Origin: Daphnia carinata
Lineage: Eukaryota
DNA length: 64,000 bases
Assembly: GCF_022539665.2 (NCBI RefSeq)
Contig: NC_081331.1
Span: 7,688,001-7,752,000 of the forward strand
Reading direction: 5' to 3'
Position 1 is the first letter of the stretch, and each line of letters begins with the position of its first letter. Below are positions 17,202 through 61,937 of the stretch, one piece after another. The translations under genes were made by a program, and so were the position numbers. The notes below the pieces were generated by a model. It did not search any database and was not told the DNA's origin. It saw only the letters and a program-made list of their open reading frames with translations.

Positions 17202-17346
17202 TATAGTAGTTTTAAGTGCGTAGCACCGACTGCCTCTTTATTCTCTAGTTCTGCATGAGGGTTATAGCCATGAATACCATGACATCTAGCGGCCACTGTT
17301 ACACACACACACACACGCAGGGCTCACTAGTTAGGTATTCACAACA
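17202..17346 (-). repeat. 5' LTR, 145 bp
   Basis: Direct repeat of 9969-10111 with one extra CA unit; adjacent to the PBS. Confidence 0.95.
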
Positions 17347-21516: not shown

Positions 21517-21871
21517 CGGATTCTGGTAGTTATTTATGGCTATGGAGATGTCTAGGAGCACTTGCGATACCAACCGAAAAAAGAACTCACTCGATAGTAG
21601 ACTGCTTTGCGGTGGTGCTCTACATGGAATGGCCCAACACTGTAATGAAAATGTTAGTGTTGTGTGAAAATCGTCTGTAATCAGAATGGGTTAATCGGAA
21701 CGTAAGCGTCGTTTATGATACAGACGATCAACGTTAGATTCTCCCCCTTCGGCTTCCTTTGATTTTTTTTTTTGCCGTTATTAAGAAAGCTATTGGAGGT
21801 TCAGGAAAGATTCTTGGAATGGTTGCAAAGGGAATTGATCATGCCGGAATTGACTAAATACTTATTGTTAG

Positions 21872-40760: not shown

Positions 40761-43269
40761 TCAATTACAGAACAAAAAGTGTCGTGCACTAGTGTAGTAT
40801 TTTTAAGTTCATATGTTTTGTGTGGGGCTGCAAAGTGGCGGTTTTCCCTATGCTTTGTTTGCCAAACCTGACACATTTCACTGGAACCTCCTGTACATGT
40901 TGCTTTGAGATGTAGAAAAAAATCTGCCGCGTCTTGATGGAACTGTCGATTTCTTTTTCTAAAACTGAGGTTCTGAAACTTTTTTTCTTTTGATATTTTT
41001 TTAGTTGACCATACTTACAAATAAAATCGACAAGCTAACTAATATAACCTTTAACTTGGTTCAATGTATTCTTGAAGTATACCAGTATATATACAACATT
41101 CTTTAATTAGCGGACTTGCTGTTTGCCTGATTTAAGCCCTGGCATCAAGTTCTTTTTCAAACAATAAATGAATCGTTTCAACATTATTCGATTCAGTGAA
41201 TGACCCTCCCAAGACAGGTTACCTATGAAGTTGATGGCCTATGACCAAGAGCCAGTTGGTAAGCAGCACGCCTTACTGGTAACAAGTAAGGTCTAGCCTA
41301 GTAATAGGCTAGATGCGTTTTTCATATTTATCGTCTGCCACGTCTGACTGGTATCTCTGAGTGTGTCTACGACTCCTTTCTATTCGCTCTTCCATTCCGT
41401 AATAATATTGAAGATTTAAAAGTGTTGATTGAGCGTAAAACCTTTGTTAGCAATAAAACGTGATTCATAAGAAGGCTATAAATAGTCTTACGTTGAGGTA
41501 TAGCGACCAACGCCCACCTCCATTATGTCGGAAACTTGTAATGTGACGTCATACAACCAATCCAGCGGTTCTATGTCAGTTAATGTTTTGTATTAATTAC
41601 CAATGGGGTTTTAATAATTACAGTAGTCAGGGGGACTACCGTAGGGTCTAGGAACAGTGTTTAGAAATTTGAAATAGCAATCCTCATCCTAAAGAACATG
41701 AAAAAATATTACCTGAAATAGTGACTCTATAACAACCGTTGAAAAACTGTTTTTAAAATGCATCAATAGAAGTTCGAATAATGACAAGAATGAATTGACC
41801 TTCCATCTATTTTGAGGGCTGAAAGTAGACGTTTCCCAGATTGCACAGTTCTGCCTTTAAGACGTGATTTGTCCTAGTTTTCGGAAATGTGCCTAATTCA
41901 TTAAACATCCCAGAAGAGGCCGATAGGTAATTAAATCTGGTTTTGATGACCACCAAACTAGGGATAGAAGGGGGATCTCTGTTCGTCTTTTGCGCGGTCT
42001 TCGGGTAGCCTATGAGCCTAATGACGAGTTATTATTGTTCCAACATCCGTCTTTTAGCAGCGCTTATAGTCCCAAACAGGGTTTATGATTACGGGACAAT
42101 AATTGACCTCTTGTCTTATGGATATTTTGTTTCATCACCCTTCGTCAAAATGAAATAAAAATGCAGTCAGAGTAAAAAACGATATTTTTGTTTATTTCCT
42201 CTGGATTATTGTTTTGTGGAACAAATGAACGGAAGGTAGAGGGAACGAAAATGGAGATGGTTTCCTTTGTCGGATGATGCTATATTATGACATACGACTT
42301 GCACTCTTCTTCTTTTTTGCCTAGAGCCGACGACGCTTGCAGTGTCAAAGGCCATTCCAGTTTACTTGCGAGCACTTAGACAAAATGTTTTTCTAACACT
42401 AACATAAATAAACTGCTTTTATGAGGCGAATGCGGTGCAATGACTGACTGAGTATAAGCACCAACGTTTCATTAGCCGGTTTGGACTATAAATATAGTAA
42501 AGCCTATTTTCATAAAAAGCGGAATCGACCTCAAGCTCGCAAAAAACAAGAGAAAGCCATTTAAAGGTGAGTCACAGTCGATGGGTATTTTGATTTAAAA
42601 CTAGAATTTTGGCACAATCAAAGCCGTTTGTTTCACAGCATTTGGAACTGCGCAAGGCCGTGAAGAATGTCTTAGTTTGGCCCAATACAGTTTCTTATAA
42701 AGCTGTCTTTTTCCGGATTTACGTTATGGTTTTTTGCCGGTACGATTTTTTTCGTGTAGTGTTCAATTTTGTTTGACGTTGTCTCGAGGGGTCAAGTGTC
42801 GCAGTACAGGGTTGTGTGGCGTAGCTTCGTGGTACGCCCTAACGACCCGCCGTTGCGCCATTTTCTTTTCATTTCCGCTGTTATGTTTTAAATAATTAGT
42901 AATAGAGAAGTAAAAGAAAGTGAAAGAGGTCAATGAAGGAAGTGTAGTTAATTTCGTGTGTTCAAAGTAACTGTGACATAATTTATAGCAGTGCGCTTCT
43001 TTTTCAGACATTATAGTCAGTAGGGGGAAGTGGGGTGAACCGGGACAGTGAGTGAAGTATGATAGTTGGAGGAAAAATAGTTAATATTGATTTAAAATTT
43101 CAAATAAGTTATATAGTATTTGTATACATGTTTCCATTCGAATCTTCATTTTCAGATTCGGCGGACAGTGGTGTCTGACTGCCCACTTAGACTGTTTCCA
43201 CCTTGGGTTGAATTCAGCAGAGCTCGTGGATGTCGACCATCTGCGTCACAGGTTGCTAAATAAATGCTC

Positions 43270-44580
43270 TAAGTTTCTTCATCAAGCCGAAATCCCTGTT
43301 TTTAGATTGCGTCCCATCCAAATAAACAGTTCTCAGAAACACCATATGCTACAATAATTCTTGTCAAAACTGACTGTCCATATCGTACAGGGATGTAACG
43401 CTTCTGAGCGTATGTAAATTCTCTTCCCCTACATCCCATAAATCAAGTCGTGATTGTAGATCAGGGGCAACCTTTTAAATAATTTCGAGAACAATACTCT
43501 TAGAAGCGCCCATATTAAATAATGCTTGAAACGGGATCCGAAATATCCTTAGTGAAAGTACTGGAACCGATTCATTCATTTTTGCTAATGTTTTTTTTAC
43601 TTGTCGGGATTTAAACTGAGGCTCGTAATCAATTGACCCGAAGTTACAGTTGATACCTTTTGGTTTCCCTGACGCTGAGGGGGACCTTTAATATTAGGGA
43701 TATAACAATTTCTGAACAAAATACAATTAGACTTATGGCCAATTTCACGACGGAAATAAGAGATTGGAGGCTGAAACTGTTCCAAATTACGATGTCGGAA
43801 TTGACGGCAAACAGCCTTAGCGATATCCATAAGAATTAAAAGCTGGGTAGTCCTATATAATTAGAATCATTAACCGGTCTTGAGGAAGAAGGTTGGAGTG
43901 TTATGGGCCTATTCAAAATCTATCTAATTGGTAAGAATTTATGTTACTTTTGAAGCGCGGAGGTGACGTCTCCAATTTTGGTCCCAAATGACGTATTTCA
44001 TTTGAAAGGAAACCTGTTTTCTATACGGGACGCCTGTTGAAAAAGATACATAATCTATTTTATGAAGTTGAAGGTGTTTTACCGCCTGTGGAAGTTCACG
44101 AAGAACATCCATAATGTCATCCTTTTCCGATTTTATATTTACTTCCATAACGAATATTGGCAACGGCATTACTTACCATCTCTTTCTGATCAATTAACAT
44201 TTGTTTATTTTTTTTTTATTCCGTATTTTTGGTATCGTATGACTCGTATATCGTCCTAACGAACTCATGTATTTGACAGTCTGTCTATAAAGTTTCTAGA
44301 CGAACGGCATATACGCTTGTCGATGCAATAATTTGGTTGATATCTTTAAATTCCTTCTATCGGACGGACCCGAATCACCCAATTATTTTTTGCATAAGAA
44401 CAAGGAAAAAGATTTTTTTGTATAGCCTGCAGGATATGCCCTTTTAAAAATGTTCTCTAAATGATGAGCATAATCTATCATTTTTCAAATCTATTTTTTA
44501 AGTCAACATTATCATCTCCGTGGAAGTGATGGAGTAATTTTCTAATGGAGGCATGTTCATATGGATGTTTACCGCGATGG
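43270..44580 (-). pseudogene. Decayed gag/protease of a relative of the 48927-61937 element
   Basis: PYRKQVSFQ, GPPQRQGNQ and the conserved CAGGGAAACC slippery context; FQALFNMGASKSII parallels LQALFDTGAAKSII at ~52780. Confidence 0.8.
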
Positions 44581-45267
44581 TTTGGATAACTCAACAGCTT
44601 TAGCTGTTGTTTTACTCGCACTCTTCTGAGCATCCTGACCCATCTACTATACTGTCGCGTCGTCGAAATTCAACTCGTCATCGCGACCCCCCCCCCCAAC
44701 CAGCAGCGGCAGGATTGGTTGAAGATCCTCACCTCTTTATGGTTATTCTCTTGAGCGTCACTCATTCGCGGGAAGTAAATGGAGCGAACTTGACTTCTCT
44801 AGGGGACAGTTAGTTAGTCAGATGTGTTTTGATCCGCTCTCATCATGTATCGTATAATCTTATCAATTAACTCTTTAACCCGGAACGCCGCTTATCGCTC
44901 TCTCACTGAAGGAGGGTAGCAACACGTTAAAATACTTTAAAAGATTTGACCCAAGAGTCAAAGCGAAATTGGGAATCCAGAAAAAGAAGAAGTTGTAAAC
45001 GAGATAAGATGTGCCGGTTGTTTTGGAAATTATTGAAATCAGTAACAGTGGCTGCTCTGGGGGGGGGGGGGGGGGACGACAGTAAGCCATATTATAGGTC
45101 GGATACGCAAGGAGGCATTTTAGGGCTCCTTTTTGTTGATTCTGAGCGAGTCCTAAAATATGATTCTGAATTGGTCAGAATTCGTCAATGTTTCTATCGT
45201 TTCATTGGTCTGGCGGTTTCCTAACCTCGTTCGTCTTGGGTGTCGCCTGTTTCTCGACAGGGCATGA

Positions 45268-48108
45268 GGATTGGCGGAGAAAAAGGCCCAGACGAAAAAG
45301 GCCCAGACGAAAAAGGCCCGCGAAAAAGGCCCAGACGAAAAAGGCCCATACGAAAAAGGCCCACTTTTTTCCAAATTTAAAAGTAGCCTTTTTCTCCATT
45401 GGACTGGGCCTTTTTCTCCGCTCAATTTCCATGTTCCTACAAACTTTATGTTTGTTTCCAAAATTGTATTTCCCGCCTCCTATTCCGTGGAATTTGGAAT
45501 GTACAAAGGTTGCTGAAACCGTGATATTCTATAAGGTTTGCAGAGATCAACAATGTTAGCGTTTGTACGCTAGTTAATCTTTGATTATTTATTCGGTTGT
45601 AATCTAATTTCGGATTATATTAGTATTTATCTATTGCTTATATCCCGTTTCATAAGGTTCATTTTTCACAATTTTTGTTTTTTGAACAACTATCGCTTCT
45701 TGAAATGTAATAGAAGAAATACATGTTTTCCGCACATAGCCTTGTTCTGTCCACCCTCTTTGATCATTCCTCCCAACCCCCAGTCCATATCCCTTATCAC
45801 TTCCCTTTGTCGATGCTTATGCCATAGGTAAAGACCACTGATTCATTGTGAATACGGTAACTGAATGAGTTCCGCGGGGCTTTTGTGGTTGCTGGGAACA
45901 ATGATATGTTACCACGAAGACTAGTTTATTATTATTACCATTTGATAAATAATGTTTATAGGAATAATATTACAAACTTAAACTATTGTCTGAGGCAAGG
46001 ACCAAAACAAAGACTATTGTAATTCAATATTGATTCTAATACCATATATTCCTTATACATTTTCAATTCTTTTAACAATTACAAAGAGCCCAATAAATAT
46101 ATTAAAATCATAACCTACTGCTATAAATGATTTTATTCGTTCTTCGTGTCCTGTTTTCACCTTTTGCACATTTTCAAGCAGCTATTGATTACCTAATTAC
46201 ACATCACATACTACATTGAGATATAAGGAAGCTTTACACTTTACGTTAACAAAGCTACTAATAATGACAAATCAATTTTCTACCACGACGGACTTTTTTT
46301 AAAATGAGTCTTTTATCTTTAGTTTATTCTTTTATGTTCTTTCTTTTCAGTTTTCTTTTCTTAATGCTGGCTTTTCTCTTTTTCTGTTGTTATTCCTTTC
46401 TCTTTTCCTTTTCTTCGATTCGTTCAGCCCAATTTATGTTACTTTATAATTTGATCTCGTTCATTAATTGATTTGGCAAGCAATTCCACAGTCTTTTTCC
46501 TATTGCAATACAGAAAGGTTAAAAGTTTTGAAGATCTTACAAATATTTTTGTCAAATTGAAGGTTTACCTGAAAACCTTCAGCTATTTGCAGAGCACCAT
46601 TTCATTCCTGTTTCTCTTCAATGCTTCTTGCATTCTCAACTTCAGCTTGGCCTATCAAGATTTTCACTTTTGGTGTAAGCTTTATTTTCTTCATTTGAAT
46701 CGTTGCCACTTCTGGATCTAAAGTGGTCTTTTTCAGAATGGGTGAAGAATTAGATAGTTATCCAAAATCAAATTTGCTGAATACTAGGCATTCTTCACTG
46801 TTGAAAATTGGTGTTAGCGGTGTACTTGTTGGTCTTGGTTCAGGAATACCTGTTTTGACAAACTCTGTGGGATCAGAGGTTGATGACACTGATGCTGCCT
46901 CGGTGGCTTGTGCAAGTTTGGCAATTCAGGACCACTTCTTGTTATTTTTCTTTTTTAATTTCTTCTTCTTCAATTTTTCTAACTCCTTTTAAGTTTGATT
47001 TTCATTGTCCTATCAGACAAATCCAGCCTTTTCCCTGAAAATAGATGGAATAAGCTGGCCCGTCTTCCTTAAACCTAAATGTTAGCACATACCTGTTAAG
47101 TGTGAGGTGTTAGCTGCTAGACATTCTTCCAGTTCAACACCAACCTAATTGCTATTGAGATCGCCAACTGTAGATACATTTTCAGTTGGAATGTTGGTCA
47201 ATAAGCTAGAAATGAAAAAGTCTTGTTGCTGCTTTTTTTAGTTGCTTTTTAAGAGCGACGATGTCAATGGACCCTCGCGTTTAATAAGGCTCTTGATTTT
47301 TTGGGTCCTCATTTCCTAAAAATTTTTTTAGACGTCACTTTCAAGTTCTTGTTTTCTCTTTTTCCATTTACAAAAACTGCCTCTCTTATTATAACCTTTA
47401 AACTTTATTATTATTTACCTTGATCTCTCAACACTATCACTGATCACTCCATAGATCAAACTATACGAAACAAGTCTATTGTTATTTTCTTTAGGGAACG
47501 GCATTTTCGAGCCAAATCTAGCGTCAAGACGCCACAAACAATGGCGGACAGTGGAAAGCTGTTAGTAAAGCCCAAGTAGTGACCAAAACTTCCACTTGAG
47601 GGCAGTATCAGCAGAGTAAGTATCCCAAAAATCGTATGAATAGTAGTACAAAAAACAAACGTAGTAAAATAAACTGTTAAGATTTTCTATTGAAATTTTT
47701 AAAAAATTTTAATTCTTAAATAACAAATTCAACAAAATTTAGTTCCTTTGTTATTGTTTATGGTTTCCATCTATCGGTGTAGTATGCGAATTCCATTGAT
47801 AGCTATCTGTTATTGTCTGCTAGCATCGTCATCATGGCTTTCCATAATTGCATCAATAAATGGGGAAATTATTGAAGTCTTACAATTTATTTTGCTTTCA
47901 ATATGATTGAGAAGAAGATTTTTTCATGGGAATTCCCTAGGAAGCGTTAATCATAAGGTATGTGTCTCCTCACATCTATTCATATCAATACTGAAAAGAA
48001 TTTATTTTGTTGAGTATCCTTTTTCGTATGGGCCTTTTTCGTCTGGGCCTTTTTCGCGGGCCTTTTTCGTCTGGGCCTTTTTCGTCTGGGCCTTTTTCTC
48101 CGACCTCC
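45268..48108. mobile_element. Non-autonomous foldback/Mutator-like TIR element
   Basis: TIRs made of ~15-bp tandem units GAAAAAGGCCCAGAC (45274-45364 and 48018-48102, inverted). Flanking direct repeat GGCATGAGGA at 45261-45270 and 48109-48118; exact TSD length is ambiguous. Confidence 0.85.
46280..47400 (-). pseudogene. SURF6: Decayed surfeit locus protein 6 copy with introns inside the TIR element
   Basis: My minus-strand translation gives LVFSKFDF (~46790), E*NGALQIAEGFQ followed by a GT..AG intron, VELLAKSI and WAERIEEKEKRKE*QQKKRKASIKKRK, in the order of SURF6 motifs as I recall them. Confidence 0.7.
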
Positions 48109-48958
48109 GGCATGAGGACAGTGCTACTCTCCGTCACAAGTACCTAGAGGTTTCGACAGACGTGCCTCAAAAAACGTTAAACCTACCCTAACATACGTAA
48201 CCCTGCAGAAAATGGAAAAACATCTCCCGTCAAAGCTAGCACGGCATATGTACCCAATAAAAAATTAACCCCCCCCCCGTCACATCTACCCTATTAAAAA
48301 TATACTACAATTACAACCGCCGTATGAACCCTTTTGTTTTGTTAAGAACAGACATACCTACCCGTTGGTTTAAAACTGATCGACACACCTACCTCTTCGA
48401 TTAACACAGTGTAACATACCTACCTCTCCGGTGGAAATTGAACAACACACCAATCCCTTCAATTAATACAGACCGACATACCTACCGATCAGCTTGCAAC
48501 CGAACACTTTGTTGCAAGCTGATCGACACACCTACCCCTTCGTTTAGTTGAGCCCGACAAACCTACCCCTTCGTTTTAAAAAATCTTACTTACCTACGTT
48601 GATGTCCAGGTTACCGTCTCCATACTATTATTCGTTACCTTGAAATTACGAACGAAACTACTGATGCCTTTTGGTTCTTTTGGGAATTGTGGGCAGGAGA
48701 AATGATAGCCGACTTATGGGAGAAATCCTGGATATGTTTTTCTGTCGCAGAACGATAATAATTGTGTTGCCGCGGCTACCCTACAAGGGAAACTACAAAT
48801 AATAACTCAATTCTAACTTGTATAACCCTAAAAAAAACGAGTCGAAAGACCAGCCCTTTTTCTACAACTATAACTTTCTACCAACAATTCCGCTGTATTG
48901 TCTTTTGTTGTTTACTAGTTTGCATTTGTAACGAAGCCGGACATATTACTTTTACATA

Positions 48959-49467
48959 TTAATTTTAACGACAAACCTTATGCCTACCGTAACGAAACCT
49001 GGTTACCAATTGAAGCAAACATTGTGTTACCGGAACAGACGCTTGTGCATTCTTTTCGGTATGAAAATGTCGAATTCTTCGACTACGAACATCGAAGCAA
49101 CCCGGCATATACCGACAATATGCTAAATCATATGAACATTATGGCCGATGTAGCCGCCGCGATTAATGAACATCCTCCACCTGAATTTGCCTTACGCCAC
49201 AAATACAGTGCATCGAATGTCTTACTGACATCGGCTAGTGTCGGAACTTATACATCTTGGTGGGACACCATCACAAATTACTTCTTCATCGGCATATTAT
49301 GTCTCTTAGTGCTTCTCTTCTTACGCATATGTTACGCCTGCGGTCTTTTTACACTCATCTGGGCTGTATGCTGTCGCCCTTCCGATCATCCAAGACCTGT
49401 GGCTCCCGAATCGATTCCGATGCATCAACTCTGATTACGGGACGTAATCTCACGCCGCCGGGAGTGA
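48959..49467 (+). repeat. Duplicate of the env 3' end (60699-61207)
   Basis: Constant offset of 11740 bp; about five substitutions. Confidence 0.95.
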
Positions 49468-49819
49468 TGTAACGAAGCCGAACATATTACTTTAACTTTT
49501 TCTCGCTTTTGCTTCAGTAGTAAACGTAAGTCTGGACATGGCAATTGCAACACTATATACGCAGTGCAGCTGACCCAAATAAACACCTGCAGCTGACTCA
49601 CGCAGACGATACGCCCTCAACATCACGCCACATCAAACGGCATCGTTTAATTGGCTGCCGCGTGAATGCACTCCGCACAATCACGCCACTTTTGCAGTAT
49701 GCAAAGTTTCGTGATAAACCCAATCACAGCCGCCACTTCGTTTAAGCAATCTTCCCCGCCTTATTGAGTACTATTGTGCCTTGCTTAATGTTTCGTGATA
49801 ATCGATTCGAATCTGAACA
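49468..49819 (+). repeat. 5' LTR, shortened relative to the 3' LTR
   Basis: Near-identical to 61208 onward for ~250 bp, then deleted or rearranged; ends ACA before the PBS. Confidence 0.85.
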
Positions 49820-49822
49820 TTA

Positions 49823-49835
49823 TGGTGGCAGCGGT
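49823..49835 (+). promoter_or_regulatory. Primer-binding site, tRNA-Leu-like
   Basis: TGGTGGCAGCGGT. Confidence 0.8.
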
Positions 49836-49853: not shown

Positions 49854-52649
49854 ATGACGGATGATGTTATTTATGGCGGACCTAAGATACCTCGCACGCC
49901 TGTAAGCACCCCCCTTGTTCCCCTAACGCCAGTGGTACAAATCTCCGACGAAACGGTTGCTAAGTTAATTGATTTTGAGAAACTATCCGATCGCCCTTCG
50001 TCCACGTTAGACAAAGTTCAGGGCTGTAAAGCGTCAGAAACAGAAACTGAAGCCGGTAAGAAGTCTGCTTCTCCCGTTTCGAAACCTAAATTGCAGATAG
50101 ATAATACTCAGTTAAGTAAACTACGGTCGAATCCTGCTTATGAGGAAGTGGCTCCGTTCGTTAAACCCACCACTAAAACAACTGGTGCACGTGCTAAATC
50201 TACTGCTGCAGCCACTCAACGTCCACGATCGGTTGATGCTAAGTTCTTTTCTCGTCTTTCTCCTCCAAAATCACCTACGAAAAGCGAATCAAAGGCTAGT
50301 CTCCTCTCGAGTACTCTTTGAAGCTTCTTCCAAAAGAAAAGCCCAGTGAATGGACGATTACCTCAACTTGAGCCTCCATCACCTATACCACGAGATCCAG
50401 AGCAATCCATCCAAAGTATTTCCGACGCCGTCGAGTCCGATTCCGTCCCTGATATTAGCACTCAAGTGCCTGAAGGAGAGGGTGTTGGACTTCCAGTCAC
50501 ACGACCCGAAAATTTGGGACCAGCTGAACCGGCTACTGAACGATTTCGGGCTGAGAGACCGCCCCCTGGGCAAACCGCAGTTGCTGACGAACGTGGAGAC
50601 GCCAACAATATTCCTGAAATACTTAGCTGCGATTCAAGAAGTGGGGGCCAGCGGGCAGATAAAGCGGACGACGTGGAAGGCGGATCAACAGGCGTCCGAG
50701 TTGACGACGTCCTTTACGACGTATGCGAGGCAGTTTACGACGTTCCTGTTAGGACAAACGTACAGCATAGAGGAATTGCAGACGCTCGTACCAGCGAAGG
50801 ACACGACCCTCTTCGGCTTTGTGCCGAGAGCGACGACGCAAATCAGCGAGGAGGAGAGGCAATACGAGTTTCTGATCCTGGAAACGTTCGAATTCTCGAT
50901 CCACCTGGAGAAAACCTTGTTGGAATTCCAGCTGACTCTTCTCACGGCCATACTAAACCTACTCTCGTTCATAAGAAAACTACAATCAATCACCAGCTTG
51001 GAATCACTGTTACTCGAACTGATACTCCTCGGGAACAGATTGTCCCACTTCCGGAGAGGGACAAGACCGTGCCACAAGCAGCTATCGGCCATCGTCAAAG
51101 ACGTCCTCGCCCAGACTGCCAAACAATTGAAACAGTTGCTATCGTCCATTCGGGAAACCCAGGAAGAGCTGGAGATCACCCCAACTTGTCCGACATCATC
51201 ACAGCAGATAGACAAACGCAAGACAGAACGACTACGATTCCGAAACCGTCGATACCACTGACCGACAACAATATTGGCGAATCCCGGCCAGTTTCGAACC
51301 GCATTCCAGGCGCCGCGCAATCTCACCATCACAGGGCTCCAAACTCTCCTATAACTTTTTTTACCAACAATATGGTTTACTCTTATTCCCCTACCAGGGC
51401 AGCTACAGTAAACGATTTAAATGATTTACAAAACAACCAGCATACCTTTCCACGATTACAATTACTTCCTCCCTTTTCCGGTAGTCCAATTACTCGCTTT
51501 GACTCTTGGCTAGAATCTTTTGAGAGTATAGTTGATGGGGCAGGATGGTCTGAAGGGAAAATTATTCAGATGATGCGAGCAAAATTAACAGATAAAGCTT
51601 TTTCACTCATACAAACCTTAATTAAAAAACATCCATACGACTATGGTTCCATTAAAACGGCTTTGCTCGATCACTTTCACGGGGATGAAAATGTTGATGT
51701 ATACATTACGAAATTCAATAAAGCTAAACGTAAACCTGGGGAAAAAATTGTAGATTATGCTCATCGTCTACAAGAAATTTTTAAAAAGGCATATCCTGAT
51801 GGTTATATGGAAAAATCTTTCGCAGTTATTCTCATGCAGAAATTTATCGAAGGATGGGATTCAAAATTGCAAGCTAAGGTCAGATATAAGGAATTCAAAG
51901 ATTTCCACGAGCTCGTAGCAGCAACTCGCGTTTACGCCGTTCGGCTGGAAGCCTTGGAAACAGACAATGAGAAGCATGAATTTGTTAGGGCAATTGACGA
52001 GTCATTTAGCACAAAAAATTCGGAATTAAAAGAACTTAAGCAAATGTTAAGTGACCAGAAAGAAATTGTAAGCAGTGCCGTTGCCAATATTCGCCATAGC
52101 CATAAGCAAGGGGATAATCCAAAGTCGGATAAAGATGAGATTAAGGATGTTCTTCACGAACTCATACAGGCTGTTAAACGACTCCAGCATGATACGAAAG
52201 ATTATTCTCCGGCTACACCAGGCCCTTCTTATAGGAAACAAGTTTCATTCCAATCGAATAACGCTAATCAAGACGGAAACTGGAGGCCTCCCCAGCATCG
52301 TCTCAGTAATAATTATAATAATAATTATTATAATCCCAGCCCTTACCAACACCAACCTTCTCGATTTCCAAACAGACCGACGCCAGTTGCGTCCTCTTTC
52401 TCGAGGCCACCTAGCAATAATAATAATAACAGGTCAGATCAGCAGATCATAACTTGTAATTTTTGTGGTTACTGCGGTCACACTCAGTCCAATTGTCGTC
52501 AATTTCAGCGTCACACTCTGGAACAAGCCCAGCCTCCAATCTGCTATTCCTGTCGAGAAATTGGGCATACGTCTAATAATTGTCCAAAATATAGGAATTC
52601 GCAAAGACCTAAAATTCCAGGGCCCCCTCGACACCAGGGAAACCAGTAG
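49854..52649 (+). CDS. Gag with a long disordered N-terminal leader and one in-frame TGA at 50319-50321
   Basis: ORFs 49764-50321 and 50346-52649 share a frame. Capsid-like LPPFSG...FDSWLESFE...RKPGEKIVDYAHRL; two knuckles CNFCGYCGHTQSNC and CYSCREIGHTSNNC. Confidence 0.88.
50350..51261 (+). CDS. Putative overprinted ORF, 303 aa, +1 frame relative to gag, unknown function
   Basis: ATG start, stop-free for 303 codons, Leu-rich and helical-looking, entirely inside the gag leader. Confidence 0.55.
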   Translation: MDDYLNLSLHHLYHEIQSNPSKVFPTPSSPIPSLILALKCLKERVLDFQSHDPKIWDQLNRLLNDFGLRDRPLGKPQLLTNVETPTIFLKYLAAIQEVGASGQIKRTTWKADQQASELTTSFTTYARQFTTFLLGQTYSIEELQTLVPAKDTTLFGFVPRATTQISEEERQYEFLILETFEFSIHLEKTLLEFQLTLLTAILNLLSFIRKLQSITSLESLLLELILLGNRLSHFRRGTRPCHKQLSAIVKDVLAQTAKQLKQLLSSIRETQEELEITPTCPTSSQQIDKRKTERLRFRNRRYH

Positions 52650-52679
52650 CTATCAACTGTAGCTTCAGGTTAGTTGATA
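52637..52679 (+). promoter_or_regulatory. -1 ribosomal frameshift signal between gag and pol
   Basis: G GGA AAC in the gag frame two codons before the stop. The -1 frame is open into pol. Downstream stem TATCAACT...AGTTGATA. Confidence 0.82.
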
Positions 52680-55600
52680 ACGAGCCTCATATTAAACCCC
52701 GACAAGTCGCAAAATTAACCACTATTACGAATGAATCGACCCCTAGAATTCCATTGAAAATTTTTCAGATCCCGTTACAAGCATTATTTGATACAGGCGC
52801 GGCTAAAAGTATTATCCATGAGAGATTACTTAATAAGTTACCCCCTAGAGTTCAGGTGATCTGCAGTCAGCTTGACTTCGATTTATGTGATGTAGGGGAG
52901 AAGAAATTACATACGCTGGGAAGAGTTATTTTACCCGTACGATACGGAGAAACAGTTTTTGAGCAAGAATTTATTGTTACTAATGGTGTTTCTGAGGACT
53001 GTATCCTTGGATGGGATGCAATCCAGAAGCACGGATTTCGGCTTGACGGAGAAGCCAGGAGCATTTACCTAGCGAGGGATGAGCAGGGATCAGCCATCTC
53101 TAAGGTACCCGACATGGCAGTTGCTACGGTCAAAAAGACGACGCTATTTCGTCAGACGTCGATAGTAGTTGCAGCGCAAATGAAAGATTCATTTCCGTAT
53201 ATCCCACAAAATACAGCGTTTATATTTACCCCAGCAAAAGATCTGCCAGCAGGCATTTATATCGAAGAATTTATCGGCAATGTATCGGGAGATGGAACTT
53301 ATAAAGTTTTGGTCGAGAATCATTCACTACATCAAATCAAAATTCCTAGAAACACTAAATTAGGCGTAATTGAAATAGTTGGGAATATTATCGGAAAAAT
53401 TTCTTTAGCGAAATTAGAAGATAATCCTAAACCAGTAACTGAGCCAGTTTTAATCACAGAAGTAGATTCCGAATTTCAAGAGCCGCTTTCAAAATTATTA
53501 CATGACTTTCACGAATTGTTCGCGTCCAAAGATTCAGAATTAGGAAACACCAGCCTTATAAAACATACGATTGATACACAAGGACGAGGCCCCATTCGAC
53601 AACGCCCATACAGAGTAACAAATAACCAAAGGAAATTATTAGATGATAAAATTCAAGAAATGCTTGATGCAGATGTAATCCAATATTCGCATTCTCCATG
53701 GGCTCCACCCGTGGTTTTAGTAGAAAAGAAGTGTGGAGAAGTAAGATTTTGTGTAGATTATAGAAAATTAAATAGTATTACGAAAAAAGATTTATTCCCT
53801 ATGCCTAGAATAGACGAAACATTAGACAAATTATATGGGAAGAAATTTTTCACAACTCTTGATTTAGCTTCAGGCTTTTGGCAAATTCAGATTGATGATC
53901 CAGCTATTGAGTAAACAGCGTTTGTGGTAGAAAACAACCTCTACGAATTTAAACGTATGGCATTTGGATTGTGCAATGCACCTGCCACATTCCAACGGCT
54001 AATGAATTACGTACTGAAAGACGTTTTGGGAAGTAAAGCATTAGTTTATTTGGATGATGTTATAATCTTTTCCGACACTTTCGAAGATCATTTACGTGAT
54101 ATTCGAGAAATTTTTGAATTATTACGGGATGCCAATCTGAAATTGAAACTCAAGAAATGCCAGTTTATTAAACTCTCAGTAAATTATCTAGGTCACGTAA
54201 TATCGACCGATGTTATTAAGCCTGATCCGAGCAAAATTGATAAAATAGTCAATTATAAAACACCGACTTCAGTCCTGAAGTCAGATCATTTCTCGGATTA
54301 GCTGGATACTACAGAAGATTTATTAAGGATTTTGGATCGATTGCCAAACCGTTAACTCGTTTGACTCATAAAGATCTTAGCAGGAAGCCTTTTAGTTGGG
54401 GACCCGAGGAACAAGTTGTTTTCGAGAAATTGCGCAATTCTTTAGTAACGCCACCAGTTCTTGCTTACCCCAATTTCAATGAAAAATTTATCCTTTTCAC
54501 CGATGCCTGCGATTACGGCATTGGAGCAGTGCTATCCCAAATTCAAAATGGCCAGGAACACCCCATAGCCTACTCCAGTAGACAGTTAACAAAAGCAGAA
54601 TCGAATTATAGTACGATAGAGAAGGAAGCCTTAGCAGTCGTAAATGCCATCAAGCATTTTAGGCATTATCTATTGGATAAACCTTTTGAAATTATCAGTG
54701 ACCACCGTCCTTTGCAATGGCTTAAAGAACAAAAAGATAATAATGGTAGATTAGGAAGATGGGCTATACTATTGGCCGCAACGAATTATGAATTAAAATA
54801 TAGGCCGGGACGTGTTCATCAAAACGCAGATTGCCTGTCACGCTTAAAAGTAGCTAGTATACAAGCAAGTAGGAATATTACCTTAATTTGTGAGAAACAA
54901 TTGGAAGACAACCTTTGCATAGCCATTCGTAATTATTTGGATAACGGAGAACTTGAGGAATCTATTCTTCAATCTAAACCAGATTGGGTTAAAGAAATTG
55001 ATTATTTTGAAGTTATTGATGGTACACTTTACTGGCATGTGCTGCCATCTGCCGGTAGCAAAAGAAACGAAACCAACCATCAGTTAGTCTTGCCTGCATC
55101 GTTACGCCATCTAGTGCTCAAAGAAATACATGACGCACCGATGGGCGGACATTTAGCTTTTTATAAAACCTATTTGAAAATAAAGAATCATTATTGGCCA
55201 AATATGAGAAAGGAAATTAAAGAATACTGCCAGGCTTGTGAGGTGTGCACCGCCAACACTTCTTCAACATATAGGGCGTTGTTGCATCCTCATGAAATAG
55301 CAAAAGCTCCTTTCCAAGTCATTGGGATGGACTTTTTGGGCCCAATTACGCCAATTTCACCTAATGGAAATAGTTATATTTTAGTCATTACCGATTATTT
55401 TAGCCGGTGGGTAGAAGCTGTTGCGTTAAGGGATCAAACAGAACAGACGACAGCAAAATGTGTATATAAGACAATTATAGTTAGACGTGGTATGCCTAAA
55501 GCTATTCCTTCTGATCGTGGAACCAATTTCACGTCGAAGCTATTCCGTTATTTCTGTAAAAAATTACAAATTGATCAAAAATTAACAACTGCTTACAATC

Positions 55601-56652
55601 CAGCTAGCAACGGAGAGACTGAAAGATTTAATCGAACATTAACAACAATGTTGAGAAAGGAATTAAAAGATGGTGAACATGAGAACTGGGAAGATATGCT
55701 GGATGATGTTTTATTTGCTTACCGTAGTTCTGTCCATTCTTCGACATGTGAAACCCCGTATTATTTACTGCACGGTAGAACTCCCAATATACCTATTAAT
55801 GAATTCCTTAACGCTTCCCCAAAAACATTTACCTCCGCATCGGATTACGTAGGTAATTTGACTGAAGGCTTGCGTTACAGTTTCCAGCGCGTCCGTGAGG
55901 AGAGCAAAAAAGCAAGGAAACGTCAGAGGGAACAATATAATAAAAGAGCAAATGTAAAACAGTATATGGTAGGTGATAGAGTATTATTAGATATTAGGGT
56001 AGTTAAAGAGGGCGATAGTAGGAAATTTACCTCTAAATATAAAGGTCCTTATAGAGTTGTAAAAGTTTATTCCAATAATACAGTTGATATTGCTGATAAT
56101 TCATACATCTGTCAACGAACTCACGTTAACCGTCTAGAACCCCTGTACGAAACAATGTTATGGAAAGACGAACATTGTCCCCCTATCGAGACGCCTCCGA
56201 AGTTCGAGAATCGATTTCGTAAGTCGATTTCCACCCAAACAATGGAAACTGTGGAAAATATGGAGCTAACAACAAGCGAATCGGAAAACGTGGATGTGGA
56301 AGTAAGTCCACTAGAAATTGTGGATGCGGAAAATGCGGAATTGGAATCCGCAGAATTGGAAATGGCAGAAGAGAAAATGGACGCCAACGCTAACAGTAAA
56401 CAACCATTATGCCTCAACGACAAAATTCAAGATATACATGATTCGGTTGACGATAACTCAATCGAAGCTGACATATTGTTGAACCGTCATAATCCAACAC
56501 CGATTCCCGAAAACAATGTAGTTACCATCAATTTGGAATCTGAGGGCCGACAGGTGGCGCCAGCCATCGATCAGCCGGAAGAATTGCCACCCCAAAATGC
56601 TACCGGACGCCCGCAAAGAAATCGAAGACTACCAATGCGTTATAGAAATTAG
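52637..56652 (+). pseudogene. Pol (protease, RT, RNase H, integrase); stop at 53912-53914 and frameshift near 54280
   Basis: LFDTGA, FCVDYRKLN, MAFGLCNAPATFQ, VYLDDV, FTDACDYGIGAVL, SDHRPL, HDAPMGGHL...CQACEVC, SDRGTNF, NGETERFN, GPY. Confidence 0.95.
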
Positions 56653-56747
56653 AAGCGTTTTTCCGAAACAAAGTCAACGATCACATAACGAACGACGTGT
56701 ATTTAACAGCAAGAAATTTCAAAGGGACTTCACAACGTTTTTGACAC

Positions 56748-57224
56748 TTGTTGAGTCGAGTTCACCAAAATCGCGCTCCAAATTTAAACTTCCGTGAAGA
56801 TGGACCCGTGCGCCAACTCAACCAATCAGCAAACCCAGGCAGCTTCCGAGTGGCTAAGTGCCGAAGAGCAAGCCGGAAAAGCGATGGCACCATCCCAATC
56901 TACGACGATTGGACTCCCGTTCCGGAAAAACCTACCAACATCGTTAGCCAGACGCCTCAGTCCCCGGAGCTCGACGACATGGAGTCATGGGACATGGAAC
57001 GTCAACGCTACGAGCGCCGCATCGAGGAACGTACGGCCGCGCTCACCCGTCAATTAAATGCCGATCTTTACGCCGAAGATTGGGGAGGAGCAGTCACCAC
57101 CCTCAAGCAAATTCTGGACTTGGATCCAGGAAAGCGCCACCCCCCTCTTTTCAACTGGTCGCCGGACCAGTGGGGCACTGGTCGTAAAAGGCAGAGGTGC
57201 GACCCTATCACCATCCAAAACTAA
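56748..57224 (+). CDS. Accessory ORF A, unknown function; true start uncertain
   Basis: C-terminal half is similar to ORF B (ILDLDP motif); AATAAA at 57391. Confidence 0.55.
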   Translation: MLSRVHQNRAPNLNFREDGPVRQLNQSANPGSFRVAKCRRASRKSDGTIPIYDDWTPVPEKPTNIVSQTPQSPELDDMESWDMERQRYERRIEERTAALTRQLNADLYAEDWGGAVTTLKQILDLDPGKRHPPLFNWSPDQWGTGRKRQRCDPITIQN

Positions 57225-57723
57225 GACAACGGAAAACGAAAAGATCAGGACCACCAACAAGACATTTTTTTTCTCTTTCCCCTTATTTACTCTCACCCCA
57301 GTAGAAACATGTGTTTATTCCCCATAGAATAGGACTCTCACAAATTTTGTTTCCCTCTTCTCATTATATTCTCTACTCAAACATAAATAGAATAAACACA
57401 ATAGGATGCATAGAAACTCCGCCGACCTTTCATTATATTACTATTTAAGACGAAATTTGAGATATAGGGACGCTATGAAACAGGCGAATGAAAAAAAGGG
57501 GAAATATAAGATAGACACCTGCTGAACAATCAAGTGGCACCTCGAGGGACTTAGTGTTGAACTCGAATTTTTAACAAAAAACAAAAGAAAGGAAGCTGGA
57601 AACTACAAGTGGAAGGCTTGATTATATAAGTCAATACGTCTCGAACGTCGGGACCACACTCGCAACTCGTCAACGCTACAGACCAGGAGCTAAAGAGTGA
57701 AGCCGACCCACAATCGATCTAAA

Positions 57724-58098
57724 ATGGCTGCGAACAACTTCCGTCGGCCACAGATACCCCAGATCGAACGCGTTCGCCGCAATCCTAAAACCGGGGACAA
57801 CATAGTAGTACAAGAAGCTAACAGCACCACTTCGACAAAAGAAGACGTCGACCGGGCCGTAAGCGCAGCCTGCGGAAGAAACTCCATCGACAATCAACGA
57901 CCGTTCCGAAGGCGGCTGATGGATATGGAACACCATCTCCAGAACCGCTGGAGAGTAGCCCGGCTCACAAAATCTCGGACGGAGAAACTCGTCCAGCTAA
58001 TCGAACAACAGGTCTGGCAGAGGGCCACAGAAGTCTTCGAAGCAATTCTCGATTTGGACCCTGCAAATCGCCGCCCATCATCGCAAGAAGAAAATTGA
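57724..58098 (+). CDS. Accessory ORF B, unknown function
   Basis: TATATAAG at 57623-57630, AAAATGG start context, AATAAA at 58172; similar to ORF A. Confidence 0.62.
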   Translation: MAANNFRRPQIPQIERVRRNPKTGDNIVVQEANSTTSTKEDVDRAVSAACGRNSIDNQRPFRRRLMDMEHHLQNRWRVARLTKSRTEKLVQLIEQQVWQRATEVFEAILDLDPANRRPSSQEEN

Positions 58099-58845
58099 GA
58101 AAAAAAAAGGAAACCTTTGCATTTATACTCGATTCATTCTCTCATGCCTGTTTGTATCCGTTCTTGCCCTCAATAAATAAATCAGACAAAAAAACTAGTT
58201 ACTTGCCCATGTTCATATATATCTCTATATATGAACTAACCCACTAGCTAGAGTCAGGCAAAAGAAAGAGAAGGGATAAGAGTAACAGAAAGAGAGAAAA
58301 CTCTTATAAGCCGATACAAAAAAAACAAACATATACTTAAACTTAGAATAGAAAAATAACAAAGTAACTTCCCGCGTTAGCGCTATGCCCTACTTTTCAG
58401 TAAATTGTCTAAGTCCAAGTTGTTTGTCCTTTCCCTTTTTGCCGCAATATTCCCTTCCTGACGTAGGTTTTCTTGAAATTCTTTAACACAGTCTTTTCCC
58501 TATTTTCCTTCTCTCTTGGGTCCCTCTAATATATATATACAAGAAAAACATTAGTCCATATACCCCATAAGCCTACGAATATTTCACTAAGAAATTTACG
58601 CCTATTTTACCCCAACCTCTTGTGTCTGCGACAAATGTCCCTTGTCTCGCACAAGCCGCTTTTTCTTTCTTCCCCAGATGTTCGTTCCCCTTTTTAGCGT
58701 TATTTTGTTTCTTTCCCCATACCATTTCTCATGTGTTGGACTTAGAAGATAAAAACCTAAATTTCACGTCGTTTATTTTTGATAATAGATAACGAATGTA
58801 ACATTTTGCGTAATTTAGCACCCTTCTTGATGGGTGAGTTATCTA

Positions 58846-58916
58846 GTTCTACTGAGAATTCGAACCTCAGACCCCAAGCATCACAGATGAGCACTCTGTC
58901 ATTGAGCTATTAGCAC
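58846..58916 (-). ncRNA. tRNA-like / pseudo-tRNA unit (GTG at the anticodon position)
   Basis: GTGCTAA TA GCTC AATGACA GAGT G CTCAT CTGTGAT GCTTG GGGTC TGAGG TTCGAAT TCTCA GTAGAAC. A and B boxes are present, D and T stems pair, acceptor stem pairs 5/7, anticodon stem is broken. Confidence 0.65.
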
Positions 58917-59481
58917 CTGTGTTACGCCTTGCGTTGAGCTTAGGAAAAATGCACCCTTCAAGCCCACCAAGCGCGCCCTTTCCCTTCACCTTGCTCGTGT
59001 TTCACTAGCCTTTTACCCTATCTGTATACGTCCTTTGTTTAACTAATTGAACGTGGTCCCTATGTGCCTTTCCGTCTTTAAATTGTAAACTGCATCTTTT
59101 ATCCTCCTGTTTAAACGATTCATTATTTTCGAGAATTTTCTTCGGCATCATTGAGATTGTCTTTTCCTCTTCCTAATGACACCAGTTATGACATAAACAT
59201 ATTCCCCTGTATACCCGATAAAACGCGTTTTTCTATGCCTTATATGCGCATTTTTACTCGCTCGCGACCATCGGCAACTGTTTAAAGGCCGACGGGAGAG
59301 CGTTGACCTTTTTCGATTGCCGTCATATATACTTTCCGCTTTTGCTTTTTATTTTACCTTCTCTTTTATATTACTCCCCTAGTTTTAAGAAACCCACGTG
59401 ATGATGTGTGATGCTTTTATCTATACCTTCCTCTGTTTGATATTGACTGTAATGTTTACTATATGTTGCCCTCTATAGAAA

Positions 59482-61174
59482 ATGTCGCTGATTCCATTCA
59501 TACTGTTGCTATGCCTTTACGGGTTACACCCACAGGCATTTCAAACAACCGTATACGACTGTTCCGAACCATTAAAGACGGGAATACTCCAATTCTCCGA
59601 TGATAATTGTCAAGCAATTGCGCCCGATAATAAGGCCGTGAAGGTGAAATATGCGATTTATAGCGAAGAACGTGCCGCGGCTAAATTTCCCGGATATATT
59701 TGCGCAAGATGGAAGAATATACGGCGCATCACCATGAACTTTTTCGGTCAACTAGTGGTAGTGCCGGATAAAATTTCGATTGACACCCGCCGAGTGTAAC
59801 GAAATGATTAACCATAAACGTTGTGACGAAAATCGGATGACTTTTTCTTACGATAAATTTGTATTTGATCGCGAACCTGACATTTTCGGATATTGGTTAC
59901 AAACAATTGATTCTGAAATTATAAACTGCGTTCTGGAGAAAGTGCTACTTTTTCAGCAACACGAAGACGCCGATTTTACAACTCCGATCGGAACAGCTTC
60001 CGCCACGACTGGAAATTTATCACACAATCACTTAACACCGATTTGGGATAAAACCTATACACAGAAGACTAAACCGAAAACCCGACTAGTGGAAGATGGA
60101 ATGGGTACACTGGTCCGTCTACCGGGTGACGAAATAATTTTCAGGCTCCAAGATGACGCCCAACAACTTGATTTTCATTTGACGCCTATACAACGCTGTG
60201 CCTCCCTAGAAAACGAATGCACCAATAAAACTTCGTCGTTTGAGATCATCGGCCAATCAAAACTCACCGTTTCGACGGCGGCCATCATGGAAAATTTAAC
60301 AGCCACTTTGGAGACCCCAGCGCCATCTACCGACGAAAATCTAAACGTACCCGCGAATATACAATATATTCGAGACCAACTTACCGATCATTAAAATGAA
60401 TTGGCAAGACAAATTCGACTAATGCAATGTGAGGCTCACCACGCTAAACACGAAAGGGCTGTTACAACTGCTCAATATAACGGATGGTTAGCAGCTTCGC
60501 AGTTAAATTTACCACAGTGCACAAAATTACAAGCCTTTGGAAAAACGGTTGTGCTGATTCAATGTAAGGCTTTAAATGTTACATTTGAGACTATACTGAC
60601 ATCTTGCGGACCGCAACCGAAATTTCAAAATTACACTATTAATCTTGACGGATGGGAACTTGTGAAATATTCCCCTTGTTACTGGACTAATGGTTTTGTT
60701 AATTTTAACGACAAACCTTATGCCTACCGTAACGAAACCTGGTTACCAATTGAAGCAAACATTGTGTTACCGAAACAGACGCTTGCGCATTCTTTTCGGT
60801 ATGAAAATGTCGAATTCTTCGACTACGAACATCGAAGCAACCCGGCATATACCGACAATATGCTAAATCATATGAACATTATGGCCGATATAGCCGCCGC
60901 GATTAATGAACATCCTCCACCTGAATTTGCCTTACGCCACAAATACAGTGCATCGAATGTCTTACTGACATCGGCTAGTGTCGGAACTTATACATCTTGG
61001 TGGGACACCATCACAAATTACTTCTTCATCGGCATATTATGTCTCTTAGTGCTTCTCTTCTTACGCATATGTTACGCCTGCGGTCTTTTTACACTCATCT
61101 GGGCTGTATGCTGTCGCCCTTCCGATCATCCAAGACCTGTGGCTCGCGAATCGATTCCGATTCATCAACTCTGA
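59482..61174 (+). pseudogene. Env glycoprotein, class III fusogen-like; frameshift near 59785 and stop at 60392-60394
   Basis: Signal peptide MSLIPFILLLCLYGL, Cys-rich ectodomain with N-glycosylation sequons, C-terminal TM FFIGILCLLVLLFL. Splice acceptor CTCTATAG ends at 59478, just before the ATG. Confidence 0.85.
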
Positions 61175-61207
61175 TTACGGGACGTAATCTCACGCCGCCG
61201 GGAGTGA

Positions 61208-61937
61208 TGTAACGAAGCCGAACATATTACTTTAACTTTTTCTCGCTTTTGCTTCAGTAATAAACGCAAGTCTGGACATAGCAATTGCAACACTATATAC
61301 GCAGTGCAGCTGACCCAAATGAACACCTGCAGCTGACTCACGCAGACGATACGCCCTCAACATCACGCCACATCAAACGGCATCGTTTAATTGGCTGCCG
61401 CGTGAATGCACAAGCTCCGCCCAATCACGCCACTTTTGCAGTATGCAAAGTTTCGTGATAAACCTAGCAGTTGACGGAAATCAGACAAGTAGTTGCAGCC
61501 GTGCCAAATAGTCGTCTTAAGTCAATCTTCCCCGCCTTATTGAGTAGTATTGTGCCTTGCTTAATGTTTCCTTGCCTAAACTTTGAGTTAGAATTCGTTC
61601 TTGTCCCGAGCTATCCCGGACATTGATTGTCAGATTCTTACGAATCTGAACTCTTGTTGTGTATCGCTCGTGTGGAAGCTGAAATCCAAGTCCGCCTTGT
61701 GTCGTTTTCTTACATTCTTTCACTCGTGAGTTCACGGTAAGACCCCCTGTCTATTTGTTCTTTCTTTTAACTGTTTTCCCGAATGTTTCTTATCTTTTGT
61801 TCTCTTACCTTTTTAATTCTTATGTCTTAGCTTACAATAAACACATACGTCATTGTGGGTAAAACGCCTCGAGTTCAATTTACATTTATTGTCTTAATCC
61901 GTAAAGTCCATCTTCCCATATGGGAAGATGCTATACA
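61208..61937 (+). repeat. 3' LTR, 730 bp
   Basis: TG...CA ends, AATAAA near 61836, followed by the TSD CATT. Confidence 0.9.

What the first reader, a model, noticed from the sequence alone, without database searches (positions are those of the whole stretch)
49854..61174. Complex-retrovirus-like organisation in a Gypsy element
Beyond gag, pol and env, one LTR-bounded unit holds an overprinted 303-aa ORF, two paralogous small ORFs and an antisense tRNA-like unit. The last three lie in a 2.8-kb pol-env spacer. Env-bearing Gypsy elements normally have three ORFs. An accessory-gene set of this kind could be an undescribed invertebrate retrovirus-like lineage (inference).
Basis: partly seen in the sequence, partly recalled or inferred. 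Interest (0 to 1): 0.85.

Follow-up and report, generated by a model that had tools for sequence, protein, structure and literature searches.

The report
Retrotransposon with conserved hidden accessory genes
This decayed, envelope-bearing retrotransposon, likely from a water flea, carries an extra 303-amino-acid reading frame on the same DNA as gag and two related small frames before env; related elements keep matching proteins, so they are likely real accessory genes, the largest possibly a regulator of the element's RNA as in complex retroviruses.

Summary
Observation mostly confirmed. The element is a decayed LTR-gag-pol-env Ty3/gypsy copy with five coding breaks. Its env is 57-62% identical to Daphnia magna proteins. 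Env-bearing Ty3/gypsy elements of Daphnia are already published, but I did not find this family among them. ORF-X (303 aa, +1 frame over a ~500-codon Gag N-terminal extension) is a real dual-coding region: both frames lack stops (0 observed; 15-19 and 9-10 expected). Full-length homologues (26-46% identity) occur in D. magna, D. pulex and metagenomes, and the same overlap is supported in four other families. The protein models as a helical fold (pLDDT 81) with no known match, and 9 of 10 homologues have an arginine-rich tail. The two spacer ORFs are paralogues, and one D. magna gene model has a homologue upstream of env. The tRNA-like unit is sub-threshold, has a broken anticodon arm, and its conservation is untested. 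Best guess: X is a Rev/CERV-like RNA regulator (about 0.35, inferred only). Accessory genes in invertebrate gypsy elements have precedents (CERV, MDG1 sORFs), so this is a new variant of a known kind.

The parts
49468..49819 (+). 5' LTR, internally deleted relative to the 3' LTR; apparently shared with an upstream, almost wholly deleted tandem unit
   Evidence: blastn 87% over 363 columns with 6 gaps to the 3' LTR; repeats D9, D13, D14; end placed by the PBS position
49823..49835 (+). primer-binding site, Leu-tRNA type
   Evidence: unique site in the window; its reverse complement equals the PBS listed for Dpul_errantivirus_3 and Cdub_errantivirus_6 in PMC13524379 supplement 1
49854..52649 (+). 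gag frame, ~931 codons: a ~500-codon P/S/T/D/E-rich N-terminal extension, then capsid-like region and zinc knuckles; broken by one stop at 50319
   Evidence: Pfam PNMA, Retrotrans_gag, zf-CCHC; D. magna models P0056 and P0037 start at the matching Met, and P0032 aligns without a gap across the stop position
50350..51261 (+). ORF-X, 303 aa, +1 frame wholly inside the gag extension; predicted all-helical core (2-275) plus arginine-rich tail
   Evidence: dual-coding test; 28 phmmer hits; alignment; overlap conserved; AlphaFold2 pLDDT 81, pTM 0.78; tails
52613..56652 (+). pol (protease, RT, RNase H, integrase) in the -1 frame to gag, candidate slippery heptamer at 52637; broken by a stop at 53912 and a frameshift near 54280
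   Evidence: Pfam order Asp protease, RVT_1, RT_RNaseH, Integrase_H2C2, rve; frame map; heptamer
56745..57224 (+). small ORF s1 (159 open codons, first in-frame ATG 56979, true start uncertain); GC-rich island followed by an AT-rich tract with AATAAA at 57391
   Evidence: 40% identity over 91 aa to the N-terminal part of D. magna env gene model P0085 (0 of 3000 shuffles); composition
57724..58098 (+). small ORF s2, 124 aa, paralogue of s1; shared C-terminal helix resembles one TPR motif; TATA-like box at 57623, AATAAA at 58172 and 58176
   Evidence: all 15 weak PDB matches to the three-member profile are TPR or TPR-derived proteins by name or recall
58845..58916 (-). degenerate tRNA-like unit: D and T arms with A and B boxes, 5 of 7 acceptor pairs, anticodon arm broken; status uncertain
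   Evidence: Rfam RF00005 21.5 bits, below the gathering score of 29; ARAGORN only at a relaxed threshold; shuffles
59482..61174 (+). env, class III (rhabdovirus G / gB-like) glycoprotein of ~565 aa in relatives, preceded by a T-rich acceptor-like site ending at 59478; broken by a frameshift near 59780 and a stop at 60392
   Evidence: 13 homologues, 40-62% identity; PF00974 in 4 of 6 relatives, best E 3.7e-05
61208..61714 (+). 3' LTR, TG...CA, ~507 nt; the right end is a best estimate and no target-site duplication was established

Best explanation
This is a dead genomic copy of an env-bearing Ty3/gypsy element, likely from Daphnia, whose gag 5' region encodes a second conserved protein (ORF-X) in the +1 frame, and X likely acts as a Rev/CERV-like nuclear regulator that would help export unspliced genomic RNA. 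Shown: element anatomy, dual coding, and conservation of X and of its overlap. Predicted: a helical fold with a disordered arginine-rich tail. Inferred: env is made from a spliced RNA (acceptor-like site before its ATG; errantivirus env is typically spliced, PMC12992720), so the full-length RNA must escape nuclear retention. X would bind RNA or enter the nucleus through its basic tail and recruit host export or anti-silencing factors with its helical core. X is probably made from a sub-genomic or spliced RNA, since six ATGs precede it. The two spacer ORFs look like separate small transcription units (GC-rich ORF, AT-rich tail, polyA signal) that encode soluble one-TPR-like adaptors of host-interaction type (inferred). 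Component odds: X is a selected gene 0.9; s1/s2 family selected 0.7; X Rev/CERV-like 0.35; tRNA-like unit functional 0.2.
For: Stops: 0 in the gag frame over X vs 15.6-19.5 expected, and 0 in the X frame vs 9.5-10.1 expected. T at X third positions is 8% vs 38% in gag core and integrase. 28 phmmer hits, with full-length ones aligned from the first Met at 26-46% identity. X-frame and gag-frame proteins from other records fit the same +1 overlap at 97.5%, 92.5% and 100% of codons in the best 40-codon window for three D. magna pairs, and at 95% for P0021/P0049, vs ~30-34% background. X lies 5' of capsid in P0030, P0041, P0052, P0057 and P0130. An X/gag model and an env model have locus tags two apart on one D. 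magna contig. AlphaFold2 pLDDT 81 from 13 sequences. 9 of 10 proteins with tails of 30 aa or more (X included) have at least 5 Arg in 10 residues; gag-frame control windows reach at most 4. Precedent: CERV of Cer1 is required for gRNA export (PMC10309623).
Against: No function was tested and no expression data were obtained. No fold match: Foldseek E>0.001 in PDB and BFVD, best VIA Z 11, within the range of generic helical bundles. X shares no detected feature with Rev (small, recalled) or CERV (Cys-rich M and G domains). The Arg-rich tail could be a by-product of the codons used in the overlapping gag frame, and one homologue (P0018) has only 3 Arg. Homologues are gene predictions; no DNA of a relative spanning X was obtained, so no dN/dS. 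Three cross-family pairs fit less well (85%, 80%, 65%). The small-ORF family rests on one outside record; a word search found none. Extra N-terminal pieces of two env models from the closest env family do not match s1/s2 (P0073, P0077). L001 and L003 carry different small ORFs after pol.
Confidence: 0.45

Rival explanations
1. X is a structural or assembly protein, a matrix-equivalent adaptor that links capsids to membranes or to the class III Env tail; its basic tail would bind RNA or lipid in the particle.
For: X sits where a matrix domain would, 5' of capsid. The gag-frame extension has no Pfam domain and is low-complexity. Three gene models or copies join X to capsid in one chain (P0052, P0130, P0030). 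One clade starts with Met-Gly.
Against: P0052's cluster-mates keep X and Gag as separate ORFs (P0021, P0049), so the fusion looks like a copy-specific frameshift or a gene-model join. Met-Gly is absent from most X proteins. No match to viral matrix folds. No clear transmembrane segment (max KD19 1.0-1.8).
Confidence: 0.25
2. X and s1/s2 are host-defence antagonists (anti-piRNA, anti-chromatin silencing or innate-immune decoys) expressed early from short transcripts.
For: Fast turnover: different small ORFs after pol in L001 and L003, with a duplicated cassette in L003. TPR-like interaction helix. Soluble helical proteins. MDG1 sORF1 is a nuclear protein from a short transcript (bioRxiv 2025.03.14.642691).
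Against: No homology to any known antagonist. The STAT2 coiled-coil match (Z 9.6) is within generic bundle range. X is retained across deep families rather than turning over.
Confidence: 0.22
3. The extra ORFs are not genes: X is a shadow of constraint on the gag frame and the small ORFs are chance frames in a GC-rich spacer.
For: Spacer ORF lengths alone are not significant (P 0.06-0.19). Atlas recognition scores were low (1096 and 1957). No Pfam family.
Against: X identity equals or exceeds gag-frame identity over the same DNA (52 vs 35%, 40 vs 40%, 45 vs 38%). Gag-frame similarity was found only in D. magna models, while X reaches 26-30% relatives. The control gag core has 12 stops in its +1 frame. 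s1/s2 similarity is at protein level with no nucleotide repeat, and there is an outside homologue.
Confidence: 0.08

Closest known systems
Branchiopoda HSV/gB-type 'ancient errantiviruses' (Branchiopoda_C2 group; Chary and Hayashi, PMC13524379)
   Same: LTR-gag-pol-env Ty3/gypsy of cladocerans, class III Env, and the same Leu-type PBS as Dpul_3 and Cdub_6. Env motifs resemble Dpul_3/4 and Cdub_5/6 by eye.
   Different: None of the 15 listed ectodomains is a close match by eye, and three family motifs were not found in the supplements (cells over 400 characters are cut). Their first filter allowed at most 1000 nt between pol and env, vs 2830 here. The passages read mention no overlapping or accessory ORFs.
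Cer1 of C. elegans and its CERV protein (PMC10309623)
   Same: An invertebrate Gypsy/Ty3 element with a regulatory protein that shares DNA with gag and has a Rev-like role in gRNA export.
   Different: [quoted passage not shown] X is a single 303-codon +1-frame ORF in an env-bearing element. Homology was not tested directly; no nematode name appeared among the 22 of 28 hits looked up.
MDG1-group sORF1/sORF2 (bioRxiv 10.1101/2025.03.14.642691)
   Same: Two small accessory ORFs in a Metaviridae element, sometimes downstream of pol, with internal polyadenylation.
   Different: Those elements lack env and sORF2 is a transmembrane fusogen; s1/s2 have no hydrophobic segment (KD19 0.3 or less), are paralogous and coexist with env.
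Complex vertebrate retroviruses (HIV Rev, HTLV Rex, pX/accessory region; recalled)
   Same: Overlapping frames, small ORFs between pol and env, and an arginine-rich motif in a candidate regulator.
   Different: Metaviridae-type pol with a single RNase H and class III rather than class I Env; no sequence or fold match; the resemblance is organisational and presumably convergent.
Bdelloid rotifer LTR elements with captured ORF3 types (PMC5408684, abstract only)
   Same: Extra ORFs in invertebrate LTR retrotransposons.
   Different: Those are recognisable enzymes or env in the ORF3 position, not an overlapping orphan protein in gag.

Membership tests
Ty3/gypsy (Metaviridae) | pol domain order PR-RT-RH-IN | tested here: met
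   Pfam scan
Ty3/gypsy (Metaviridae) | direct LTRs with TG...CA, tRNA PBS, gag with capsid-like region and CCHC knuckle | tested here: met
   target-site duplication not established
Ty3/gypsy (Metaviridae) | RT phylogeny places it in the Ty3/gypsy branch | not tested
   no reference RT set was at hand
Branchiopoda HSV/gB-type errantivirus (C2 group) | env after pol encoding a class III fusogen with signal peptide and transmembrane segment | tested here: met
   PF00974 in 4 of 6 relatives; alignment
Branchiopoda HSV/gB-type errantivirus (C2 group) | C2c cysteine-bridge architecture and POL tree position | not tested
   Env was not folded; the paper's figures are not readable here
Branchiopoda HSV/gB-type errantivirus (C2 group) | branchiopod host | tested here: inconclusive
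   all species-named env and X homologues are Daphnia, but the window's own source is not given
Complex retrovirus-like organisation | conserved extra ORFs beyond gag, pol and env | tested here: met
   X; s1/s2: one outside homologue
Complex retrovirus-like organisation | multiply spliced transcripts and a trans-acting regulator of viral RNA | not testable with these tools
   no sequencing run was listed; needs long-read RNA and functional tests
Rev/Rex/CERV-type export factor | arginine-rich RNA-binding or nuclear-localisation motif | tested here: inconclusive
   9 of 10 tails have at least 5 Arg in 10 residues, but the overlap could produce this
Rev/Rex/CERV-type export factor | sequence or fold homology to a known export factor | tested here: inconclusive
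   no match in Pfam, PDB sequence or fold searches
tRNA gene (RF00005) | full cloverleaf above the gathering score | tested here: not met
   21.5 vs 29 bits, anticodon arm unpaired; ARAGORN default none
Viral Pol III tRNA-like / miRNA cassette (TMER-like; recalled) | A/B boxes plus a stable downstream hairpin, conserved among relatives | tested here: inconclusive
   boxes present; trailer fold z -1.5; conservation untestable, since L001 and L003 are short and may not be env-bearing

The most novel reading that the evidence does not exclude
A Daphnia lineage of enveloped Ty3/gypsy viruses has independently evolved a full complex-retrovirus gene set: a new-fold Rev-like regulator overlapping gag, a duplicated family of small TPR-like host-interaction proteins between pol and env, and an antisense Pol III tRNA-like RNA.
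Probability: 0.2. Interest if true: 0.85.

Novelty: new variant of a known kind. Interest (0 to 1): 0.62.

Why it matters
It provides an orphan, well-folding protein family hidden in a ~900-nt dual-coding stretch of an animal LTR element, a place where standard gag-pol-env annotation does not look. If X regulates RNA export or blocks silencing, it is a further independent origin of retrovirus-style accessory genes, testable in Daphnia, a tractable model. It also suggests that surveys which limit the pol-env gap can miss the more complex errantiviruses.

Tried and rejected
No host genome was held, and no sequencing run was listed (no evidence either way on expression). Word-index protein searches found nothing for X or for s1+s2; full HMMER and cluster look-ups later found homologues, so those blanks were sensitivity limits. 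Locus scans of viral contigs and prokaryote genomes gave no relatives. The one metagenome scan gave 5 loci, none covering X or env. Fold searches of X and s2 (model pLDDT 68, pTM 0.34) gave no credible match, which does not show a new fold. Homodimer prediction for X returned no verdict. Atlas searches gave only unnamed clusters or nothing. Earlier-findings look-ups were empty. The antisense 214-aa ORF (50685-51329) and the alternative frame 56800-57057 have no Pfam hit and were not pursued. The stop directly before X's ATG was considered as a stop-restart signal and dropped, because P0020 reads through that position. No RRE-like outlier structure stood out in the spacer (lowest z -3.1 among 58 window-strand tests). 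One L003 translation and the PR-RT translation were off-frame and were redone. P0038 among the 28 X hits is an unrelated repeat protein; P0024 and P0036 were not inspected and are probably the same kind.
Full report
Anatomy. The stretch is one Ty3/gypsy unit. It has a 5' LTR 49468-~49819 with internal deletions, a PBS at 49823, a gag frame 49854-52649, pol 52613-56652 in the -1 frame (candidate slippery heptamer at 52637), a 2.83-kb spacer, env 59482-61174 and a 3' LTR 61208-~61714. Pfam gives capsid-like and CCHC domains in gag and the order protease, RT, RNase H, integrase in pol. The copy is dead: stops at 50319 (gag), 53912 (pol) and 60392 (env), frameshifts near 54280 and 59780. Env has 13 homologues at 40-62% identity; those with a species name are Daphnia. 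4 of 6 full-length relatives match the rhabdovirus glycoprotein fusion domain. The host is therefore inferred to be a cladoceran; no genome or reads were available.

ORF-X is dual-coding. X (50350-51261) lies in the +1 frame inside a ~500-codon N-terminal extension of gag. Keeping X's protein and resampling synonymous codons gives 15.6-19.5 stops in the gag frame; the reverse gives 9.5-10.1 stops in X's frame. Observed is 0 in both, with 0 of 5000 resamplings stop-free. Under the strictest within-gene shuffle 24 and 14 of 5000 are stop-free. X third positions hold 8% T against 38% in gag core and integrase, and the control gag core has 12 stops in its +1 frame.

X is conserved. A word search missed it, but phmmer over 1.84 billion representatives gave 28 hits at E<=0.001. 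I inspected 26 of them; one is an unrelated repeat protein. Of 22 looked up, 11 are named D. magna and the rest are unnamed metagenome or Logan records. One cluster holds a D. pulex model with full-length X, and another holds a D. galeata protein matching only its Gag part. Full-length homologues align from the first Met at 26-46% identity and fall into several well-supported clades (10 rows). X lies just 5' of capsid in five models. An X/gag model and an env model have locus tags two apart on one D. magna contig. No DNA of relatives spanning X was obtainable, so I tested whether X-frame and gag-frame proteins from different records can share DNA in the same overlap. Of 7 pairs tested, the best 40-codon windows fit at 97.5, 92.5, 100 and 95% for four presumed same-family pairs and at 85, 80 and 65% for three cross pairs, against ~30-34% background. 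Over matched DNA, X is as conserved as or more conserved than the gag extension (40/77 vs 27/77; 21/53 vs 19/48; 36/80 vs 30/80). As X is the folded frame, the gag extension may be the younger frame (inference).

What X looks like. AlphaFold2 with 13 sequences gives an all-helical domain (residues 2-275, mean pLDDT 81, pTM 0.78) and a disordered tail. Pfam, PDB sequence, Foldseek and VIA searches give no specific match; the best Z of 11 is within the range for generic helical bundles. Of 13 proteins examined, 10 have tails of 30 aa or more, and 9 of these have at least 5 Arg in 10 residues; 3 were too short to score. Gag-frame control windows reach at most 4. Six ATGs precede X's start, so leaky scanning is unlikely and a sub-genomic or spliced RNA is inferred; I could not identify the junction.

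Spacer ORFs. s1 and s2 are similar at protein level only (score 79 vs 31+/-5.5; 0 of 2000 shuffles; nucleotide identity 33, 33 and 21 of 65 by codon position, on a protein-guided alignment). Each is a GC island followed by an AT-rich tract with AATAAA. Among 130 proteins held, one D. magna env gene model (P0085) carries an N-terminal segment 40% identical to s1 over 91 aa and 31% to s2 over 103 aa (0 of 3000 shuffles each). Four other extra segments of env models did not match. The shared helix resembles a single TPR motif: all 15 weak PDB matches are TPR-type, at 7-11 bits per repeat. Two related elements (integrase 55-65% identical, env not seen) carry other small ORFs after pol; in L003 these are a duplicated pair (43% identity, duplicated upstream sequence). 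Small post-pol ORFs thus seem recurrent but fast-changing.

tRNA-like unit. 58845-58916 (-) is the only tRNA-family match in the window, below threshold. It has D and T arms with A/B boxes but a broken anticodon arm. The box pattern is rare in shuffles (2 of 3000, chosen post hoc), while relaxed ARAGORN calls are common (67 of 300). There is no unusual folding. It is probably tRNA-derived; conservation and function are untested.

Mechanism. I commit to X as a Rev/CERV-like regulator (about 0.35). Env appears to be spliced (acceptor-like site; typical of errantiviruses per passages of PMC12992720), the unspliced RNA then needs export, and X has a folded core with a conserved basic tail. All functional steps are inferred. 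Rivals are a matrix-like assembly adaptor (0.25), a defence antagonist (0.22) and non-functional frames (0.08).

Literature. PMC13524379 (abstract, section 5 part 1, section 14, passages, supplement rows) catalogues cladoceran errantiviruses (31 Diplostraca rows, 30 seen), 15 with HSV/gB-type Env and some with this PBS. None looked close by eye, and the passages read do not mention accessory or overlapping ORFs. Supplement cells over 400 characters were cut, and its GitHub data and figures were not seen and may hold this family. PMC10309623 (abstract, passages, section 15) and bioRxiv 2025.03.14.642691 (passages) give precedents for accessory genes. PMC5408684 was seen as abstract only. PMC2996953 (passages) does not discuss env or extra ORFs. 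PMC12440569 and PMC13172572 had no hits for the terms tried. Ten searches showed no description of this overlapping ORF; Repbase and subscription journals were not searched.

Verdict. The backbone is known and accessory genes have precedents. The conserved orphan protein overlapping gag, plus the small spacer family in an env-bearing element, appears undescribed within what I could search. New variant of a known kind; interest 0.62.

Noticed in passing
window 48927-49467: An LTR start (~30 nt) joined directly to a 509-nt copy of the env 3' end (5 mismatches to 60699-61207), just upstream of the 5' LTR: looks like a tandem unit sharing that LTR and almost wholly deleted.
   Followed up: partly
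window 43255-45066 (-): Decayed gag/protease fragment of a related family (66-75% nucleotide identity). It is cut at its 5' side near an inverted-repeat-bounded insertion (45264-48106) and has no ORF-X hit.
   Followed up: partly
L003:3353-3787 and 3907-4668: Two acidic paralogous small ORFs after pol (43% identity over 114 aa), each preceded by a duplicated ~80-nt sequence with TCAGT motifs (initiator-like, recalled); unrelated to s1/s2. A short hydrophobic frame follows near 4965-5165.
   Followed up: partly
L001:2402-2917: Post-pol ORF of 171 open codons with a C-terminal hydrophobic segment, no Pfam hit.
   Followed up: no
L004:91-1044: An unrelated gypsy element with two small ORFs upstream of gag, the second with Met-Gly start, hydrophobic segment and basic stretch, resembling the published MDG1 sORF1/sORF2 layout.
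   Followed up: no
window 9973-17361: Another Ty3/gypsy element on the minus strand (repeats D6/D10) with what looks like a nested hAT-type transposase at 13476-15234 (+); labels recalled from motifs.
   Followed up: no
window 19800-30650 (-): ORF fragments with Rep- and helicase-like motifs suggesting a Helitron, with a local ~445-nt duplication (D3, D8, D15); label recalled, not tested.
   Followed up: no
window 49526, 49902, 50056: Three splice-donor-like GTAAG sites upstream of ORF-X; none could be joined convincingly to X's start.
   Followed up: partly
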